This document shows, piece after piece, positions 1-6,914 of a stretch of DNA of 6,914 nt (the stretch's first letter is position 1; each line of letters starts with the position of its first letter). The notes under the pieces were generated by a model. It was given only the letters and a program-made list of their open reading frames with translations, was not told the DNA's origin and searched no databases. A program made the translations under genes and the position numbers. This DNA is from a virus (taxonomy: Duplodnaviria > Heunggongvirae > Uroviricota > Caudoviricetes). The DNA is taken from IMG/VR virus record IMGVR_UViG_3300029234_000076; one strand, written 5' to 3'.

Positions 1-292
1 TCCTGTTTACCTCTTTCTCAGGAAGTTTAGTCTCCAGGATTCCCGGGGCGGTTCATTTACCACTGGCTTTCCACATATCAGTGAGGCAGATCATGCCATC
101 TTCACCGATACGAATTGGTTAATTGAAGAGGGTTAATGATTTCATAGCGTGTACCTACTCTTTGAAATGAACCTTTGCCGCACAGGAAACCAGCCCACCG
201 AGGCTCGCCAGCACTAACTGGTATCCTCAAAGGCCCATTCCAAAGGGGCAGGTTCGGTGTAAAAAACATGCGTTGCGGTACGCATTTATTGC

Positions 293-314
293 AAAAAGCC
301 CCGCATCGCGAGGC
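293..314 (-). terminator. Putative intrinsic terminator downstream of Rz/Rz1 (end of lysis cassette)
   Basis: On the minus strand, a GC-rich hairpin (plus 298-304 gccccgc, loop atc, 308-314 gcgaggc; one G-U wobble) is immediately followed by UUUUU (plus 293-297 aaaaa). It lies about 35-55 nt downstream of the Rz stop at 347-349. Confidence 0.35.
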
Positions 315-346
315 TCATTAAATGGACTTTGTGATTTGCAAAAAAA

Positions 347-805
347 TTATTTCAGGCATTGCGTCCTGATGTATTCCTGCAGGTAGTTAACCTGCGCGGT
401 TATCTTGTCGATTCCACTTCGGAGACGGTAATAATTGAGTTCAGCATCTGCTGTAAGTCCTGGGCTTTCTCCATCGCCCATGCCGCTGGCTCCGGTCGTT
501 GACTTTGCACAGGTGGCGGCGACTTGCAGGCGCTTACGCCCAGCAGAAACATCAGCACGGAGACTTTCGATAGTCGCGTTAGCATCAGCAAGCTCCTTTG
601 TGTATCTTGCATCGAGTTCTGCTACATCACGTTGACGCTTCCGCATGTCAGCGATGGTGGCGTTCGCCTTCTCCAGTTCTCTGACATTTTTGTCGCGCTG
701 GGCTTTGTAGGTAATGGCGTTATCACGGTAATGATTAACAGCCCATGACAGGCAGACGATGATGCAGATAACCAGAGCGGAGATAATCGCGGTTACTCTG
801 CTCAT
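347..805 (-). CDS. Rz: Rz i-spanin (inner-membrane spanin subunit), lambda Rz-like
   Basis: The translation [40 protein letters not shown]... matches the lambda Rz N-terminus as I recall it, with an N-terminal TM helix and a C-terminal region ending QCLK. The ATG at 803-805 overlaps the endolysin TGA stop (802-804) as ATGA; the listed ORF start at 817 is four codons upstream and less likely. Confidence 0.85.
400..585 (-). CDS. Rz1: Rz1 o-spanin (outer-membrane lipoprotein), embedded in Rz in the +1 frame
   Basis: The ORF lies wholly inside Rz in another frame. An internal Met at 583-585 is preceded by AAGGAG with a 7-nt spacer. The product [33 protein letters not shown]... has a lipoprotein signal peptide with a lipobox (VSAC) and a proline-rich mature part, typical of Rz1. 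Confidence 0.75.
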
Positions 806-1299
806 TGTTTCCCCCACAAACAGACTTCACGCTCAATCTCACGGCGAGTCATCAGTCCTTTCCATTGATTACCGCCAGCGTATGTCCAGCGCCGTAGCTG
901 ATCACATGCGCCTTTGATATCGCCCTGGTTTATTTTGCGAAGAAGCGTCGATGTTCTGAAATTGCCAGCACCCACGTTGTAAACGAATGAGTAAAGAGCG
1001 CCGCGCGTTGTTTCCGGTATATCGACTTCGATGTACGGGTTAATTTGTCTGGCGACAGTGGCAAGGTCTTTATTCAAGAGTGCTTTGCATTCTGCTTTGG
1101 TATACGTTTTACCGAGCATGATGTCTTTTCCTGTATGCCCGTGACATACAGTCCATACACCAACAATATCTTTATATGGTATGTAGCTGACACCTTCCAG
1201 ACCATCGTCACCACTCGGACCAGTGATGAGCACAGACGCTATGGCAACAGCCCCACCACCAATAGCAGCTGCTACAGCCTTGCGTAATGATGGCGACAT
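802..1299 (-). CDS. R: SAR endolysin (phage 21 R-type lysozyme, T4-lysozyme-like muramidase)
   Basis: 165 aa. The N-terminus [20 protein letters not shown] is a Gly/Ala-rich signal-anchor-release segment, followed by [25 protein letters not shown] (lysozyme catalytic region). It is near-identical to P21 R / DLP12 RrrD as recalled. Its start shares one nt with the S stop. Confidence 0.9.
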
Positions 1300-1514
1300 T
1301 ATTCACCTCTCGCAGCCTTACGCTTATCTTCTTTAATCTTGAAATAAAGGTTTGTCAGGTACGTCAGCAGGCCAAATACCAGGCTACCCAGCACTCCAAT
1401 TGCCGCCCACTGTGAGGGCGTGACTTTATCTAGCAGCTGTAAAAACCAGTACCCGGCACTACCTGCTGAGGTGCCATAGGCGACACCCGTTGTTAACTTA
1501 TCCATGGATTTCAT
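1299..1514 (-). CDS. S: Pinholin (phage 21 S21-type class II holin) with dual-start motif
   Basis: 71 aa, MKSMDK... (Met1 and Met4 dual start, antiholin/holin), with two TM segments (TMD1 Gly/Ala-rich SAR-like, TMD2 [18 protein letters not shown]) and a charged C-terminus [13 protein letters not shown]. Strong SD GAGGTGG upstream of the ATG at 1512-1514. Confidence 0.9.
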
Positions 1515-1625
1515 AACCCCACCTCGCAGACAAAGCGGGTGTAAATTGAGGGAATACTACGAAACGTAACAGACTCGAAGTCAGTGAATAACTCAGGTAT
1601 TGGGTTATCAGCTAATATCGAGACT

Positions 1626-1659
1626 CAAAAAATGGAAAAACCCGCTCGACGGCGGGTTT
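1626..1659 (-). terminator. Putative intrinsic terminator on the late-gene strand about 110 nt upstream of S (tR'-like candidate)
   Basis: On the minus strand: stem aaacccgc / gcgggttt (plus 1652-1659 and 1638-1645) with a 6-nt loop, followed by UUCCAUUUUUU. The position relative to S parallels lambda tR' upstream of S. Confidence 0.35.
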
Positions 1660-1699
1660 AAGCTGTGTGACGAAGTAACCACTCTTAACAGCATAACCA

Positions 1700-2087
1700 A
1701 TTTTTTACGTACGTAAACCACTAAATGATATTTGCGAGAATGCTACCGAGTATTGAAAACACCACTACAAATACATAAGCAAATCTCAACAAATAACCAA
1801 CAAATAATTTCCAGTGTTATTTTTAGCCGATTTAAATTGAACCTTCAAATTATAGAGCACTTATAAATAACAACCGTTAGTATAAATTGGCTAATAGATT
1901 TATTTTTATTCAGCCAAGAGCTATGAATAGGATTCGATAGAAAAAAGTTCAGATAAAAATAGAGATCTACTTCACAAATCAAACGAGAAACCAAAACTTA
2001 CATCTTGAAATAATCACATTGATTAGATGAATATTTATCGCGCAGTGACATCATTTTTTAATAATAGTTCAAAAAAAAGGGCTCACG
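1700..2087 (+). promoter_or_regulatory. AT-rich upstream regulatory region and promoter of the porin gene (exact -35/-10 not resolved)
   Basis: About 390 bp, very AT-rich, with no ORF of meaningful size, immediately upstream of the porin ATG. SD AAGGG lies 7 nt before the ATG at 2088. It contains an OmpR-box-like sequence at 1996-2021 (see findings). Confidence 0.4.
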
Positions 2088-3170
2088 ATGAAAAAATTAA
2101 CAGTGGCAATTTCTGCTGTAGCTGCATCAGTACTGATGGCGATGTCTGCTCAGGCAGCTGAAATTTATAATAAAGACAGTAACAAGCTGGATCTGTACGG
2201 GAAAGTTAATGCTAAGCACTACTTCTCCTCTAATGATGCAGATGATGGTGATACTACTTATGCCCGTCTTGGCTTCAAAGGTGAAACCCAAATCAACGAT
2301 CAACTGACTGGTTTCGGTCAGTGGGAATATGAATTCAAAGGCAACCGCGCTGAATCTCAAGGTTCTTCCAAAGACAAAACCCGTCTTGCATTTGCAGGCC
2401 TGAAATTTGGTGATTACGGCTCAATCGATTACGGCCGTAACTACGGTGTAGCATACGACATCGGTGCGTGGACTGACGTCCTGCCAGAATTCGGTGGTGA
2501 TACCTGGACCCAAACAGATGTGTTCATGACTGGTCGCACTACTGGTGTTGCAACTTATCGTAACAACGACTTCTTTGGTCTGGTCGATGGCCTGAACTTT
2601 GCTGCTCAGTATCAGGGTAAAAATGACCGCACTGACGTAACTGAAGCCAATGGTGATGGTTTCGGTTTCTCCACTACTTATGAGTATGAAGGATTCGGCG
2701 TGGGTGCAACCTATGCTAAATCAGATCGCACTGACGGTCAGGTCGCCTATGGTAAGAGCAAATTCAATGCCTCCGGCAAAAATGCGGAAGTATGGGCTGC
2801 AGGCCTGAAATATGATGCGAACAATATCTATCTGGCTACCACATATTCTGAAACTCAGAATATGACCGTTTTTGGTAATAACCATATTGCAAACAAAGCA
2901 CAAAACTTTGAAGCAGTAGCACAATATCAGTTTGACTTCGGTCTGCGCCCATCTGTTGCTTACCTTCAGTCAAAAGGTAAAGACCTTGGTGTTCATGGTG
3001 ACCGAGACTTAGTCAAGTATGTCGATGTCGGTGCTACTTACTACTTTAATAAAAACATGTCCACTTTTGTTGATTACAAAATCAACTTAATTGACGATAG
3101 TAAGTTTACCAAAACAGCTGGTATTGATACTGATGACATCGTTGCTGTAGGTCTGGTTTACCAGTTCTAA
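2088..3170 (+). CDS. nmpC: General bacterial porin, OmpC/OmpF/PhoE family; prophage-borne NmpC/Lc/OmpD-type
   Basis: 360 aa. Signal peptide [23 protein letters not shown]|AEIYNK, conserved porin motifs ([60 protein letters not shown]-terminal VGLVYQF). Oriented opposite to the flanking phage genes and visibly lower in GC than its neighbours. Confidence 0.9.
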
Positions 3171-3332
3171 TCTGATTACGAAAAAGATATGTTGCGGGAG
3201 GCGTTGCCTCCCCAACATATAAGTGGCTCCCTCAAGCCACTTCCTTTAGAAGCACAACCTTGCTTCTAACTATATAAACCTTCTGTTATATATTACCCTT
3301 TATTTTTGGGGGCGTCTCAACGCCCCATTTTT
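3171..3332 (+). ncRNA. ipeX: Structured 3' UTR of the porin gene, IpeX-like sRNA element
   Basis: Four consecutive stem-loops directly after the porin stop: 3187-3220 (15-bp stem with one bulged C), 3221-3242 (8-bp stem), 3246-3269 (9-bp stem), and 3308-3326 followed by a U-tract. This matches the published description of ipeX as lying in the untranslated region between the nmpC/lc stop codon and its rho-independent terminator. Exact 5' end unknown. Confidence 0.5.
3308..3332 (+). terminator. Rho-independent terminator of the porin / IpeX-like transcript
   Basis: Stem ggggcg (3309-3314) / cgcccc (3321-3326), loop tctcaa, followed by auuuuu (3327-3332). The U-tract is on the plus strand only. 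Confidence 0.7.
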
Positions 3333-3359
3333 AATAATTTTTAGTAAACAATTGGCATA

Positions 3360-3743
3360 TTAATTAGAGTTATTAACAACGATATCCATCTCTAACCAGA
3401 TATCTAATGCCATTAACATCCCTTCAATTATGCCCTCAGCTTTTTGTAACCTTTTCCCGATATAACCATCAGAGCAGCAATGCTTACCTGCCAGTGACAT
3501 GAATGTCATACCGACTACATAATAATCTACTAATAAATCGTGCAAATCGCTGTTGTTCTTTTTCAGACGGGCCATGCACCCGCAAATGATCATCGCGTCA
3601 TCGTCACAACATTGCGGGCGAGATTTTACTTTTGAAGGAATTAATCCCTTAAAACCGGCGGCAATGGACGACCAGGTCACATCTTCATGATTATTAGCCG
3701 CCCACGCTCCCCAACGCTCAAGAACCATCTGAATATCACGCAT
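3360..3743 (-). CDS. Q: Late-gene antiterminator Q (phage 21/82-type, QuuD-like)
   Basis: 127 aa from the ATG at 3741-3743: [24 protein letters not shown]...[16 protein letters not shown]...HCCSDGY, with Cys clusters consistent with the zinc-binding Q family. It sits in the classical position upstream of the lysis genes. The ORF-track start at 3758 is a TTG five codons upstream; the ATG is preferred. Confidence 0.85.
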
Positions 3744-3760
3744 CAACTTTCTCCACAAAA

Positions 3761-4756
3761 TCAGGCCAGCACACCAATCGTCAGCGCACGATCGATAAAA
3801 CGAAATATCAGCTCCAGCTGGGAGCCATACTTCTCTTCGAATGCCACATTATCCGCATGCAGCTCGTCGTGATGCTTTCTGCACAAAGGCAACACAAAGA
3901 GGTCATGCGCTTTTGTCCCCATTCCACCCTGACCGTGGCCTATCAGGTGGTGGGGATCATCAGCAGGTTTTCCACAACATGCGCACGGCTGCGTCTTAAC
4001 CCATCGCGTGTACTTTTCATTAACCCAGCGGCGACGTTTTGGGCGTAACATAAAAGAGTCCGGCGACTCCGGATCCACTTTCAGCGCCAGCACCTTTTTC
4101 GCTTTATCCTGGATGATGCTGGTGGCAGGAACCGAAGGCACCAGGTCACTTTCCCGGGTGACAGACGGCACAACAGGCTTCGGTAATCTCAGTGCCTTAC
4201 GGGCTGCACTTTCCGGTAAGGCATCCGCCAGATCATTACGAATCAGCCACCAGCACAGTTCCGGCATTGTCACAACGTGACTGTCATCAAAACCGAGATC
4301 CCGACGCACAACAGACAACACCCAGCGGGCACAGTTATCCGTTGCCATTGATTCCAGCCGTTCCGTGAACTGATCGCGCAGTTGGTTATCGCAGTGCCAG
4401 CACAGACGGATTGCGCCCGGCGCGTGTCGCATTGTGGTCATGTTCTCGCTGTGCCAGTCGGAATGAGGCCACTGGCAGCCTTTTTCACGAAGTAACCAGC
4501 TTTCAAGACATTCCACGCCACCAGCACGACGGATCACTGCCTCATTGCGGAACACGGCCCGAACGGCAGGATCATCCGCCAGCGGTTGTGATGCAGCCGG
4601 AACGGCACCACTGGCAAAAGATGAATAACGTTCCGGCTCAGGCTCCAGCAGGACACGCCCCTGCATAAACAGGGGCATCAGCTCTGAACCTGGCCTGAAC
4701 AATACGATCCCCATACGCGGGGCAATTTCAGGGGTCAGTAGTGCTCTCACGGTCAC
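3761..4756 (-). CDS. DUF968-like prophage protein (Qin YdfU-type) with C-terminal HNH-like Cys/His motif
   Basis: 331 aa. The C-terminal region [43 protein letters not shown] has a C-x2-C...HH...CxxHH arrangement reminiscent of HNH/zinc-ribbon nucleases. The start is GTG at 4754-4756 (or GTG at 4748-4750), one nt after the upstream gene's stop, suggesting translational coupling. Family assignment is from memory. Confidence 0.7.
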
Positions 4757-4757
4757 C

Positions 4758-5567
4758 TCAATGAACGGTATCGAGCAGCTTTAACAGCTCAGGGAATCGG
4801 GATTCGAAGAAATGCGGCTGCGTCTCGCGCGGATTTGCGGGACTGGTGATGTTCTTGCCGAACATGCAGCCTTTCGCTGTCAGCGACCAGAATTTTTTGA
4901 TGTTGTTAATCGCGGTACGGCTGTATCGTTCGCGTTGTTCAACGATCCCCAGCTTCGCCATCTGGTGATATGCCTGATTAGCCGTCAGGCGGATACCATA
5001 CTGCTTCAGCAGTGCACTCAGCGACAGCGTGGGGCGGCTTGAGCCATCAGGCGCGTCAGCAGGTGCATCAATGGCATAGCGCGGTGCCAGATTCGGTAAG
5101 CCAACAGCCTCCTGGAGTTTCTGACAGGCCCCAAGCACAGATGAGTTAGACAGATTTAACTCCCGGCGCATAAAGTCCAGCAGAATCACGCCAGCCTGCA
5201 TCTTGTCAGCAGCCTGTCCGGATAACTTTTCCGGCGCGCTGGTTACCATATCGAAAGTACGGATCACCTTCAGATGGAATGACGGGCTGATCCACATTGC
5301 ATAGGCATACACCAGTTCCTTACAGACATACGTTCCCCGTTCATTTCCCCCATGAATCACGCTCACCGGGTCAACACCCAAATTCTGGGTGTTGGTTAAT
5401 TCATGAACAAGCTCAACAGTTTGTTGGCTGGAAAGAAACTTTCCTGGCTCCTTGGTTCTGGCATTTGCACCAGATGCTACTGCTGCGCGATGCAGATCGT
5501 TCAGGCTGTAACGCCCATAAGCATCACGACGAACTTCAATACCATCAATGACCATCAGATTATTCAT
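4758..5567 (-). CDS. KilA-N domain protein with C-terminal ANT/KilA-C-like region (putative antirepressor)
   Basis: 269 aa. N-terminal MVIDGIEVRRDAYGRYSLNDLHRAAVASG...ERGTYVCKELVYAYAMWISPSFHLKVIRTFD fits KilA-N. The C-terminal part (LLKQYGIRLTANQAYHQMAKLGIV...KKFWSLTAKG) resembles the ANT/KilA-C DNA-binding module. Strong SD AGAGGAG upstream of the ATG at 5565-5567. Confidence 0.8.
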   Translation of the reverse strand: MNNLMVIDGIEVRRDAYGRYSLNDLHRAAVASGANARTKEPGKFLSSQQTVELVHELTNTQNLGVDPVSVIHGGNERGTYVCKELVYAYAMWISPSFHLKVIRTFDMVTSAPEKLSGQAADKMQAGVILLDFMRRELNLSNSSVLGACQKLQEAVGLPNLAPRYAIDAPADAPDGSSRPTLSLSALLKQYGIRLTANQAYHQMAKLGIVEQRERYSRTAINNIKKFWSLTAKGCMFGKNITSPANPRETQPHFFESRFPELLKLLDTVH

Positions 5568-5586
5568 ACTTCGTTTCTCCTCTTAA

Positions 5587-5976
5587 TCAGGCAGCTGCAC
5601 CCGCCGTTTTCTCGTACTTACTGATAGTGATCTCGACCTTCCCTTCCGGGATAACCGGTCCCCACTCCACCAGCATTCTTTTCACCTGACTGTCGTCTTC
5701 CCACACCCCCGCGTGGGTCAGGGCGTCAAACAGCGCCTTGTTATAGTTGTCCAGATCGCGGATCCTGTTATCCGGAGGAAACAACACGATCTCCACTGAA
5801 GCAGGTGCCGACGTTGGTTTCGGCAGACGACGTAACTGCTCAACTATTGCTGCGCACGCCGCGCTCTGGAATTTTCGCCCCGCCGCGCTTATCAGGCTCT
5901 TACCAGCAAACGCCCCTTTGTTGGGGTGTCGCCAGTACGTGTTCACGCTGGGCGGAAAAGGCAGGATCAGCTTCAT
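5587..5976 (-). CDS. rusA: RusA-family Holliday junction resolvase
   Basis: 129 aa. The motif pattern LPFPPSVNTYWRH...RDLDNYNKALFDALTHAGVWEDDSQV parallels E. coli RusA (LPWPPSNNRYYRH...[26 protein letters not shown]). The start ATG overlaps the upstream gene's TGA (ATGA at 5973-5976). Confidence 0.85.
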   Translation of the reverse strand: MKLILPFPPSVNTYWRHPNKGAFAGKSLISAAGRKFQSAACAAIVEQLRRLPKPTSAPASVEIVLFPPDNRIRDLDNYNKALFDALTHAGVWEDDSQVKRMLVEWGPVIPEGKVEITISKYEKTAGAAA

Positions 5977-6299
5977 ACTTTCAGGCCCCTCTCATGTAAC
6001 CAGTGGGCTGCACGCAGCCTTGCGTTTTCCTCACCGGCAAGCAGTGAGCGGATAATCCCGACCGCCTCGCTGTCGTCGTCCTTCACCGCGGTATGAAGCG
6101 TGATGCCCCGGGCCACGCCACGCTTTATCGTGATGACGCCTTTTTTCTCCAGTGCGCGAAGATGCTCCACCGCTGCATTCACTGAACGGTATCCCAGCAT
6201 GGTTGCCACCTCCTGATTGGTTGGCGGGAAGCCACGTTCTTTCTGATAAGAAATCAGCATATCCAGCACCTGCTGCTGGCATTGAGTTAACGTCGTCAT
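5973..6299 (-). CDS. LexA N-terminal DNA-binding-domain-only protein (no S24 peptidase domain)
   Basis: 108 aa. Residues 1-68 align by eye with the E. coli LexA N-terminus at roughly half of positions, including the recognition-helix region (RSVNAAVEHLRAL versus LexA RSPNAAEEHLKAL) and the GxxRGI wing. The remaining ~40 aa show no peptidase S24 motifs. ATGA overlaps at both ends (6296-6299 and 5973-5976). Confidence 0.7.
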   Translation of the reverse strand: MTTLTQCQQQVLDMLISYQKERGFPPTNQEVATMLGYRSVNAAVEHLRALEKKGVITIKRGVARGITLHTAVKDDDSEAVGIIRSLLAGEENARLRAAHWLHERGLKV

Positions 6300-6899
6300 G
6301 CCGCCATCTCCCTGACCAGTTTTTCTGCCTGCTGGCGAACCTGCGCCAGAAAGGCCTCACCACATGCCTCAAGTTCATCGCGCCCGATGTAGCTGATTGC
6401 CGGTCCCTTCCAGGTCTTGTCGAAAACAGCAATAGCACCAGCGAAGAAAGCGCCTGTCGGCACCTGCTTCTCATCCTTCGGGATAAACCAGGCAGGCAGT
6501 TCAAAACCAATACGCCCGCGAATAAAAGCAATATGATCTGCATCTTCCGGCCACCACACTTGCTGGTGGCAGCTTTGATCAGGAAAACATAGCGCCCGCC
6601 TTTATCACGCATGGCACTGGCATGCTTCATGATGTAACGCATGCCGGTGATGTATTGCCCCTCATGCTGACTGGCGCGGCTGTATGGGGGATTACCAAAG
6701 GCAGCACCTTTAAGCTCCGCAAGGCGTTCTGACCAGTCATGCGCCAGCGCGTTGTCTTCCGCCGTGTAATACGCAGCACATTTGGCGTTATCACCGTCAG
6801 TGAACAGATCCAGAACAAACGGGCCAAACAGGGTGTTAATTGAACCGCCCCGGGTTTCCTGGAGAGTGTTTTATCTGTGAACTCAGGCTGCCAGATCAT
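6296..6899 (-). pseudogene. Phage N6-adenine DNA methyltransferase (Dam-like, NPPY motif), apparently split over three reading frames
   Basis: My manual translation gives MIWQPEFTDKTL (frame A from ATG 6897-6899), then ...SINTLFGPFVLDLFTDGDNAKCAAYYTAEDNALAHDWSE...FGNPPYSR...GGRYVFLIKAATS (frame B, about 6870 to 6562), then WWPEDADHIAFIRGRIGFELPAW...VREMAA (frame C, 6559-6296). The FGPF...NPPYS...WW...FIRGR order is that of phage Dam-like methyltransferases as I recall them. Frame junctions fall in short G/C runs (about 6855-6868 and 6560-6570), so this is either a genuine pseudogene or homopolymer sequencing error. Confidence 0.5.
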
Positions 6900-6914
6900 C
6901 GTTTCCGATGGAAG

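What the first reader, a model, noticed from the sequence alone, without database searches (positions are those of the whole stretch)
6296..6899. Dam-like methyltransferase reading frame is broken twice at G/C runs
Conserved methyltransferase segments lie in three different frames, with both junctions being -1 shifts in short G/C-rich runs. This is either real pseudogenisation (loss of phage self-methylation, relevant to restriction sensitivity and to GATC-dependent regulation) or an assembly error typical of homopolymer miscalls. The two explanations lead to opposite conclusions about whether the downstream coupled genes (LexA-like, rusA) are translated efficiently.
Basis: seen in the sequence. 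Interest (0 to 1): 0.4.

Follow-up and report, generated by a model that had tools for sequence, protein, structure and literature searches.

The report
Prophage methylase pseudogene: IS629 plus frameshift
A prophage adenine-methyltransferase gene in this E. coli-type sequence is dead: a real single-base deletion, seen in at least 18 other assemblies, plus an IS629 insertion that cuts off its first 36 codons; this is ordinary prophage decay, not an assembly error and not two frameshifts.

Summary
On the minus strand, 6296-6840 is the 3' 545 nt of a 654-nt phage N-6-adenine-methyltransferase gene (PF05869/TIGR01712).

One G (gene nt 388, codon 130 GAA) is missing between window 6561 and 6562. 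The context is AGC[G]AAG, which is not a homopolymer. The same deletion is in two complete RefSeq genomes, both annotated "frameshifted", and in every other contig fetched that carries the 87-aa C-terminal ORF. That ORF is recorded on 325 contigs. It is an inherited allele, not a miscall.

The "junction" at 6855-6870 is not a frameshift. Window 6841-6914 is the right end of an IS629/IS1203 element, and the G/C run is its terminal inverted repeat. The supposed first methylase segment (ATG 6899) starts inside the IS and has no methylase homology. Codons 1-36, including the start codon, are not in the window.

Window 1-55 is the left end of the same IS type, so the window is an IS-bounded contig.

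The downstream lexA-like and rusA genes are intact. The lexA-like gene has its own GGAG Shine-Dalgarno sequence.

Verdict: observation partly confirmed, pseudogenisation supported, mechanism mis-read. This is ordinary and largely already annotated. Interest is low.

The parts
6296..6559 (-). 3' segment of the methylase pseudogene. It covers residues 131-217 of the intact protein plus the native TGA, which overlaps the lexA-like ATG as ATGA. As an ORF it starts at a GTG and encodes 87 aa.
   Evidence: Gap-free end-to-end alignment to intact residues 131-217. TIGR01712 positions 103-165 at E 5.6e-23. The exact 87-aa sequence is recorded on 325 contigs and carries PF05869.
6561..6562 (-). Site of the 1-nt deletion. 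The G of gene nt 388 (first base of codon 130, GAA) is missing between these two bases. Context: CCACCAGC[G]AAGTGTGG.
   Evidence: Alignment to intact genes. Shared by 2 of 1710 complete genomes that carry this segment and by all deletion-allele loci fetched.
6562..6840 (-). Middle segment of the methylase pseudogene, residues 37-129 of the intact protein. It includes the catalytic-type NPPY motif (FGNPPYS). There is no ATG, GTG or TTG start in this frame between the stop that closes it inside the IS end and the ATG at 6642.
   Evidence: Gap-free end-to-end alignment to intact residues 37-129. PF05869 at E 4.4e-21. TIGR01712 positions 24-100 at E 3e-33. ORF list.
6841..6914 (-). Right (IRR) end of an IS629/IS1203-type IS3-family element, running off the window. 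It begins with the terminal inverted repeat TGAACCGCCCCGGG. The last nine codons of the transposase OrfB (SIGNDDLAA) and its TGA stop lie at 6912-6883 on the minus strand. The spurious 90-aa ORF starts at 6899 inside this end.
   Evidence: Megablast hits annotated 'IS3 family transposase' or 'IS3-like element IS1203 family transposase'. 74/74 identity to the end of a 1310-bp IS in L011. A 1310-bp element with a 3-bp duplication in L005.
5973..6299 (-). Intact lexA-like gene, 108 aa, with the LexA DNA-binding domain only. Its start overlaps the methylase stop (ATGA). GGGAG lies 8 nt upstream of the ATG.
   Evidence: PF01726 at E 2.9e-19. The exact protein is in the collection on 1000 or more contigs. 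Upstream sequence.
5587..5976 (-). Intact rusA gene, 129 aa. Its start overlaps the lexA-like stop (ATGA).
   Evidence: ORF list. The exact protein is in the collection, named RusA family resolvase. Annotation of near-identical loci.
1..55 (-). Left (IRL) end of the same IS629-type element. It abuts codon 13 of a KilA-N/ORF11CD3 gene (window 56-94, minus strand). The window is therefore an IS-bounded contig.
   Evidence: 55/55 identity to L011 2665-2719. Matches of the window to relatives begin at 56.

Best explanation
The region is the remnant of a lambdoid-prophage N-6-adenine-methyltransferase gene (Pfam Dam PF05869 / TIGR01712). The intact gene is 654 nt and encodes 217 aa. Two independent and ordinary mutations have inactivated it.

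1. A single G was deleted at gene nt 388 (window 6561|6562). This shifts the frame after residue 129, separating the NPPY-containing half from the C-terminal 87 residues. The allele is inherited. It also exists without any IS in close relatives, so it most probably came first (inferred by parsimony).

2. A 1310-bp IS629/IS1203-type element was inserted between gene nt 108 and 109 (window 6840|6841). Its transposase points the same way as the methylase gene. It separates the start codon and the first 36 codons from the rest, and those codons are not in the window.

No functional methyltransferase can be made from what is left (inferred). The middle segment has no start codon in frame, and the enzyme would lack both its N-terminal 36 residues and a continuous frame.

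The window is a contig bounded at both ends by IS629 copies. This is the usual signature of a short-read assembly breaking at a repeat (inferred). The downstream genes lexA-like and rusA are intact, and their expression no longer depends on translation of the methylase gene.
For: Gene identity:
- The intact homologue scores 156 bits on PF05869 and 255.6 bits on TIGR01712. The two window segments match colinearly.

Deletion:
- The alignment with two intact genes and one frameshifted gene shows one missing G in AGCGAAG.
- A 61-nt probe across the site is 100% identical in only 2 of 1710 complete genomes that carry the segment, YJ6 and ETEC6. PGAP annotates both as 'frameshifted'.
- Every further locus fetched via the 87-aa ORF, and 9 of the 10 fetched via the window's lysozyme allele, carries the same deletion. 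The tenth, L027, has the intact gene. The sources are NCBI isolate assemblies and ENA metagenome assemblies.
- The 87-aa ORF is recorded on 325 contigs.
- Window 56-6841 is 99.8-99.99% identical to these loci.

IS element:
- Query positions 1-78 of the reverse-complemented window end hit thousands of 'IS3 family / IS1203' transposase ends, while positions 74-665 hit the methylase.
- The IS boundary is the canonical TG...CA terminus.
- The element is 1310 bp with a 3-bp duplication in L005.
- 62% of IS629 copies in O157:H7 genomes lie in prophages, and IS629 makes 3-4 bp duplications (PMC3271280).

Other IS629 copies in the same prophage module:
- In quuD in UTAK-6.
- Upstream of the methylase gene in FORC_042.
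- At the same methylase nucleotide in GCA_001030635.1.
Against: - Raw reads were not available, so the window's own base calls at 6561/6562 and at the IS junction were not checked directly.
- No complete RefSeq E. coli genome, GTDB species representative or JGI metagenome contig carries the window's exact IRR|methylase junction. That junction therefore rests on this contig alone. Support comes from an independent assembly with an IS629 end at the identical nucleotide, but in the opposite orientation.
- The other side of the insertion (methylase nt 1-108 plus the target duplication) lies outside the window. A simple insertion cannot be distinguished from an insertion followed by an adjacent deletion or rearrangement.
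Confidence: 0.92

Rival explanations
1. The break at 6561/6562 is a sequencing or assembly indel error, and the gene is intact there in the real genome.
For: Single-base indels are the commonest assembly error, and no reads were available to check this contig.
Against: - The site is not a homopolymer or a repeat.
- The identical deletion, linked to the same upstream SNP (GCAGTGGGC instead of GAAGTGGGC), is in at least 18 other assemblies from different projects.
- PGAP flags the deletion as a frameshift in two finished genomes.
Confidence: 0.02
2. The frame change is a programmed ribosomal frameshift or a phase-variable switch, so a functional methyltransferase is still made.
For: The shift needed to restore the frame is -1, which is the common direction for programmed frameshifts. 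Some phage genes use recoding.
Against: - There is no slippery X XXY YYZ heptamer and no simple-sequence tract at CCACCAGCAAGTG.
- About 99.9% of complete genomes with this gene have the uninterrupted frame. The single frame is therefore the functional state.
- In the window the IS has also removed the start codon and 36 codons.
Confidence: 0.01
3. The IS/methylase junction at 6840|6841 is an assembly chimera: a mis-join at a repeat. The methylase 5' end is contiguous in the genome.
For: The junction lies 74 nt from a contig end, and no complete genome in the collections has it.
Against: - The break is exactly at the IS terminal TG of the inverted repeat and not inside repeated sequence. Transposition produces this, and repeat-collapse chimeras do not.
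- The methylase sequence upstream of nt 109 shares nothing with the IS that could mislead an assembler.
- An independent assembly has an IS629 terminus at the same nucleotide.
Confidence: 0.03
4. The IS629 insertion is a functional change as well as a lesion. Transcription reading out of the co-oriented IS turns on the otherwise repressed lexA-like and rusA genes in the lysogen, as IS2 and IS10 do for rusA in K-12 DLP12.
For: - The IS transposase genes point towards lexA-like and rusA.
- No terminator-like site was found on the minus strand between the IS end and rusA.
- Quiescent rusA is activated by an upstream IS2 or IS10 insertion (PMC1636454).
- An IS629 position inside an Stx prophage changes induction and virulence (PMC10810198).
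Against: - No sigma-70-like promoter was found in 5900-6914 on either strand, including the visible 74 nt of the IS end.
- The frameshift allele without an IS is far more widespread, which suggests neutral decay.
- There are no expression data.
Confidence: 0.1

Closest known systems
Frameshifted 'phage N-6-adenine-methyltransferase' pseudogenes of E. coli YJ6 (HXS64_RS17475) and ETEC6 (FNW97_RS02675)
   Same: Identical 1-nt deletion, 100% identity over the 592 nt shared with the window, and the same gene neighbourhood (PerC, methylase, lexA-like, rusA, KilA-N, DUF968, Q).
   Different: Those copies keep the first 108 nt and have no IS. The window's copy is also interrupted by IS629.
Intact phage N-6-adenine-methyltransferase (PF05869 / TIGR01712) of lambdoid and Stx phages, for example vB_EcoM-689R6 URC08972.1 and WP_001303054.1 of O157:H7
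   Same: 99-99.8% nucleotide identity over the shared part. Same position in the early-right (nin-like) region, with the stop overlapping the lexA-like start.
   Different: Those genes are one continuous 217-codon frame. The window lacks codons 1-36 and has lost the frame at codon 130.
yfdM of E. coli K-12 prophage CPS-53
   Same: A truncated remnant of the same methylase family in a cryptic prophage. It matches query positions 74-233 at 96.3% identity (rows H11 and H12).
   Different: A different prophage and a different lesion: a truncation with only about 160 nt retained.
IS629 disruption of the Stx-phage methyltransferase M.EcoPA8orf6770P in phiPA2 (Gong et al., NAR 2023, PMC10810198)
   Same: IS629 is inserted in a prophage gene annotated as a DNA adenine methyltransferase. 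This shows that such insertions occur and can matter phenotypically.
   Different: That enzyme is an MT-A70-type protein with a DPPW motif. It works with a partner subunit on 16S rRNA. The window's gene is PF05869 with NPPY. It is not the same family, and no phenotype is known here.
IS629 insertion at the same methylase nucleotide in GCA_001030635.1 (KQ087962.1; loci L011 and L024)
   Same: Same prophage lineage (99.97% identity), same 1-nt deletion, and an IS629 terminus abutting the same base (|ATTAACACC).
   Different: There the left end (IRL) faces the methylase remnant, so the orientation is opposite. The 3' part of the O-like gene, PerC and the methylase 5' end are deleted. In the window the right end (IRR) faces the remnant.

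Membership tests
Phage N-6-adenine-methyltransferase (Pfam PF05869 Dam; NCBIfam TIGR01712 phage_N6A_met) | Sequence match to the family profile above the curated cut-off | tested here: met
   The intact homologue (99.8% nucleotide identity to the window) scores 156 bits on PF05869 (cut-off 28.1) and 255.6 bits on TIGR01712 (cut-off 97.05). Window segment 6562-6840 scores 75.7 and 114.7 bits. Segment 6299-6559 scores 81.3 bits on TIGR01712.
Phage N-6-adenine-methyltransferase (Pfam PF05869 Dam; NCBIfam TIGR01712 phage_N6A_met) | Complete, continuous coding frame covering the whole profile, meaning a functional member rather than a remnant | tested here: not met
   Profile positions 1-23 (codons 1-36) are absent from the window and are replaced by an IS629 end. 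The frame is lost at codon 130 by a 1-nt deletion. It is a pseudogene of this family.
Phage N-6-adenine-methyltransferase (Pfam PF05869 Dam; NCBIfam TIGR01712 phage_N6A_met) | Catalytic (D/N)PP(Y/F/W) motif IV of amino-methyltransferases | tested here: met
   FGNPPYS is present in the middle segment, at residues 84-90 of the intact protein.
   No solved structure or characterised close homologue was found. The family name is an annotation. GATC specificity of other family members is my recollection only, not something tested here. A different prophage 'DNA adenine methylase' proved to be an rRNA methylase (PMC10810198), so specificity should not be assumed.
IS629 / IS1203 (IS3 family insertion sequence) | Terminal inverted repeats beginning TG...CA and identity to known copies | tested here: met
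   Window 6841-6914 and 1-55 are 74/74 and 55/55 identical to the two ends of a 1310-bp element in L011. Thousands of hits are annotated as IS3-family or IS1203 transposase.
IS629 / IS1203 (IS3 family insertion sequence) | Full element of about 1310 bp with orfA and orfB joined by a programmed -1 frameshift | not testable with these tools
   Only 74 nt and 55 nt of the element are in the window. Full copies in related loci are 1310 bp with a transposase annotated 'programmed frameshift'.
IS629 / IS1203 (IS3 family insertion sequence) | 3-4 bp target-site duplication flanking the insertion | not testable with these tools
   The other flank of each IS copy lies outside the window. The two inner flanks (TTT at 56-58 and AAT at 6838-6840) do not match each other, as expected for two separate copies.
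Programmed ribosomal frameshift site | Slippery heptamer conserved among homologues, with the two-frame arrangement as the norm | tested here: not met
   There is no X XXY YYZ motif at the break. 1708 of 1710 complete genomes have a single frame.

The most novel reading that the evidence does not exclude
IS629 has landed at exactly the same phosphodiester bond of this methylase pseudogene twice, in opposite orientations, within one prophage lineage: the window and GCA_001030635.1. Homologous recombination between IS copies cannot exchange which IS end abuts a flank. The site would therefore be a true insertion hot spot, or an IS-next-to-IS targeting event. The co-oriented copy in the window might also drive lexA-like and rusA expression from the silent prophage.
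Probability: 0.15. Interest if true: 0.3.

Novelty: already known. Interest (0 to 1): 0.1.

Why it matters
It matters mainly as a correction.

- The gene is truly dead, so this prophage contributes no adenine methyltransferase. No re-sequencing is needed to decide between 'pseudogene' and 'homopolymer miscall'.
- The apparent second frameshift is an IS629 boundary. Together with the IS629 end at window 1-55, it shows that the window is an IS-bounded contig. Gene order beyond either end cannot be inferred from it.
- For annotation, the feature should be one pseudogene (6296-6840, 5'-truncated and frameshifted) plus a partial mobile element. The ORFs at 6627-6899, 6031-6642 and 6296-6559 should not be called as genes.
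- Biologically this is routine decay of an accessory prophage gene. IS629 is already known to sit mostly in prophages.

Tried and rejected
- **Source record or any other copy of the IRR|methylase junction.** I found no complete RefSeq E. coli genome, no GTDB species representative and no JGI metagenome contig. The junction-spanning 90-aa ORF and the 203-aa shifted ORF are not in the 15-billion-protein collection.
- **IS elements near the gene in two complete genomes.** UTAK-6 (H148) has its IS in quuD. FORC_042 (H156) has its IS upstream of an intact methylase gene. Neither is the same insertion.
- **Deriving the window's arrangement and that of L011/L024 from each other.** I tried inversion or deletion between IS copies, using flank-to-end adjacency and target-duplication logic. 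No scenario based only on homologous recombination works. This is left unresolved.
- **Characterised relatives that would fix the methylase's target.** There is no PDB homologue. Hia5/Hin1523 non-specific methylases are a different family, with DPPY at residue 194 and FxGxG (PMC3299994). The phiPA8 enzyme is MT-A70 (PMC10810198). M.EcoVT2Dam is mentioned in PMC6602927, but I could not link it to this family.
- **One mis-specified query.** In one search I gave the C-terminal segment in the wrong frame (6299-6561), which returned no family. I repeated it correctly.
- **Promoter scan of 5900-6914.** It found nothing.

Full report
**What is in the window.** The ORF list and six-frame translation show a lambdoid-prophage module. 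On the minus strand, running from high to low coordinates, it holds:

- a methyltransferase remnant
- a 108-aa lexA-like gene (5973-6299)
- rusA (5587-5976)
- a KilA-N gene (4758-5567)
- a DUF968 gene (3761-4756)
- a Q antiterminator (about 3360-3758)
- holin, lysozyme and Rz genes (1299-1514, 802-1299, 347-817)

An ompC-like porin lies on the plus strand at 2088-3170. Megablast against complete E. coli genomes and against phages gives the same order, with annotations to match.

**The methyltransferase.** In intact relatives, such as phage vB_EcoM-689R6 and O157:H7 strain SS NE 1040-1, the gene is 654 nt and encodes 217 aa. Its stop overlaps the lexA-like start as ATGA.

- The intact protein scores 156 bits on Pfam PF05869 (Dam) and 255.6 bits on NCBIfam TIGR01712 (phage_N6A_met).
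- Window 6562-6840 corresponds to residues 37-129 and contains the NPPY motif. Window 6299-6559 corresponds to residues 131-217.
- The two pieces hit TIGR01712 positions 24-100 and 103-165, so they are colinear.

**The break at 6561|6562.** The four-way alignment shows one missing G: CCACCAGC-G-AAGTGTGG in intact genes, CCACCAGCAAGTGTGG in the window. This is gene nt 388, the first base of codon 130. The site, however, is neither a homopolymer nor a G/C run.

A 61-nt probe across it is 100% identical in only 2 of the 1710 complete genomes that carry the segment. These are YJ6 from Myanmar and ETEC6 from Bangladesh. In both, PGAP annotates the gene as a frameshifted pseudogene.

The 87-aa ORF that the deletion creates (GTG at 6559) is an exact entry in the protein collection, recorded on 325 contigs. 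All ten contigs fetched through it carry the same deletion, and so do nine of ten fetched through the window's lysozyme allele. The tenth, L027, has the intact 217-aa gene. In every deletion-bearing contig the deletion is linked to the same upstream SNP. These contigs come from NCBI isolate assemblies and ENA metagenome assemblies. They are 99.8-99.99% identical to window 56-6841.

An error at a non-repetitive base would not recur identically across that many assemblies. The deletion is an inherited allele. There is no slippery heptamer, and about 99.9% of copies have a single frame, so programmed frameshifting is not a serious alternative.

**The 'break' at 6855-6870.** This is not a frameshift. 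In one search, query positions 74-665 (window 6841 down to 6250) match the methylase and lexA-like genes. Positions 1-78 match thousands of IS3-family / IS1203 transposase ends.

- The plus strand from 6841 reads TGAACCGCCCCGGGTTTCCTGGAGAG... This is the right inverted repeat of a 1310-bp IS629-type element. It is 74/74 identical to the copy in L011.
- The same end bounds a 1310-bp copy flanked by a 3-bp duplication in L005.
- The last nine OrfB codons (SIGNDDLAA) and the TGA stop lie at 6912-6883 on the minus strand.
It starts inside the IS, hits no Pfam family, and resembles the methylase only in an 8-residue chance match that maps to residues 131-138, out of order.

The methylase sequence stops at gene nt 109 (window 6840), between codons 36 and 37. 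The start codon and the conserved DQWRTP region are not in the window. No ATG, GTG or TTG occurs in the middle segment's frame between the IS and 6642.

**Context of the IS.** Window 1-55 is the left inverted repeat of the same IS type, 55/55 identical to L011. It abuts codon 13 of a KilA-N/ORF11CD3 gene. Relatives match the window only from 56 to 6841.

Both IS copies have the transposase on the minus strand. The window is therefore a 6785-bp phage segment bracketed by direct IS629 copies. Contigs ending a few tens of bases into a repeat are what short-read assemblers produce (inference).

No complete RefSeq E. coli genome, GTDB representative or JGI metagenome contig has the window's IRR|methylase junction.

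IS629 is known to lie mostly in prophages (62% of copies in O157:H7) and to make 3-4 bp duplications (PMC3271280). Other copies sit in quuD and just upstream of the methylase gene in the same module of other strains.

**Order of events and consequences.** The deletion occurs without the IS in many relatives, so it most probably preceded the insertion (parsimony). The IS then landed in a gene that was already dead.

In the IS-free allele the shifted frame stays open for 176 codons, right across the lexA-like gene, to a stop at window 6031-6033. This gives a 305-aa ORF.

In the window, that translation cannot start at the native ATG. The lexA-like and rusA genes are intact and are exact matches to widespread proteins. 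The lexA-like gene has GGGAG 8 nt before its ATG, so it does not need translational coupling. This is a reading of the sequence, not a measurement.

No sigma-70-like promoter and no minus-strand terminator-like site were found in 5900-6914.

**Comparison with what is known.** The frameshift is already annotated in public genomes. K-12 yfdM is another remnant of the same family.

An IS629 insertion in a different Stx-phage methylase lowers spontaneous induction and virulence (PMC10810198). That enzyme is MT-A70 type with a DPPW motif and is active on 16S rRNA. It is an analogy, and a caution against assuming a DNA/GATC target here. It is not membership.

The target sequence of the PF05869 enzyme was not established. 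There is no PDB relative. The non-specific Hia5 group is a different family (PMC3299994).

**An unresolved side observation.** In GCA_001030635.1 (L011/L024), from the same prophage lineage and with the same deletion, an IS629 terminus abuts the very same methylase nucleotide. There, however, it is the left end that faces the remnant, and the 3' part of the O-like gene, PerC and the methylase 5' end are missing.

Recombination between IS copies cannot change which IS end touches a flank. Two transposition events at one site are therefore implied. A published survey concluded that IS629 has no sequence-specific target (PMC3271280), so this may be a local hot spot or an insertion next to a resident IS end. 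I could not test this further.

**Verdict.** The 'two frameshifts in G/C runs' reading and the 'homopolymer error' reading are both rejected. This is ordinary prophage decay, largely already annotated, and of low interest.

Noticed in passing
window 1-55 (and 56-94): The left end of the window is the IRL end of an IS629-type element, inserted after codon 13 of a KilA-N/ORF11CD3 gene downstream of Rz. Together with the IRR end at 6841-6914, the 6785-bp phage segment is bracketed by two directly oriented IS629 copies. The inner flanks (TTT and AAT) share no target duplication.
   Followed up: partly
L011 1410-2719 / L024 1150-2459 (GCA_001030635.1, KQ087962.1): IS629 abuts the identical methylase nucleotide (|ATTAACACC) as in the window, but in the opposite orientation. 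The 3' part of the O-like gene, PerC and methylase nt 1-108 are deleted. A second, inverted IS629 lies at L024 10070-11379. This implies two independent transposition events at one site.
   Followed up: partly
window 6031-6642 (minus strand); L001 2894-3811: After the 1-nt deletion the shifted frame has no stop for 176 codons. It runs across the entire lexA-like gene and ends 55 nt before the rusA ATG. In IS-free relatives this makes a 305-aa ORF (129 native residues plus 176 out-of-frame residues).
   Followed up: partly
window 5973-6299 (minus strand): The 'LexA family' protein is only 108 aa. It matches only the LexA DNA-binding domain (PF01726, residues 1-65) and positions 1-91 of 203 of TIGR00498, below that model's cut-off. 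It lacks the self-cleaving S24 peptidase part of true LexA.
   Followed up: partly
window 576-1500 versus 2000-6841: Against YJ6, the window has 72 of its 85 differences in the Rz/lysozyme/holin region (bins covering window 500-1499). From 2000 to 6841 there are only 5 differences. Other relatives (L019, L024) match the whole of 56-6841 at 99.97% or better. The lysis cassette is therefore a mosaic replacement between otherwise near-identical prophages.
   Followed up: partly
window 2088-3170 (plus strand): An intact 360-aa OmpC/NmpC-like porin gene sits between the Q antiterminator and the holin gene, on the opposite strand. This is the arrangement seen in DLP12-type prophages.
   Followed up: no
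L020, L021, L023, L026 (from about 10400 onward) versus L018, L022, L025, L027: Downstream of the lysis and KilA-N genes, some relatives continue into terminase and portal genes. Others continue into AAA_15/AAA_21 ATPase genes and xanthine-dehydrogenase-type host genes. The lineage therefore exists both as a fuller prophage and as a truncated remnant.
   Followed up: no
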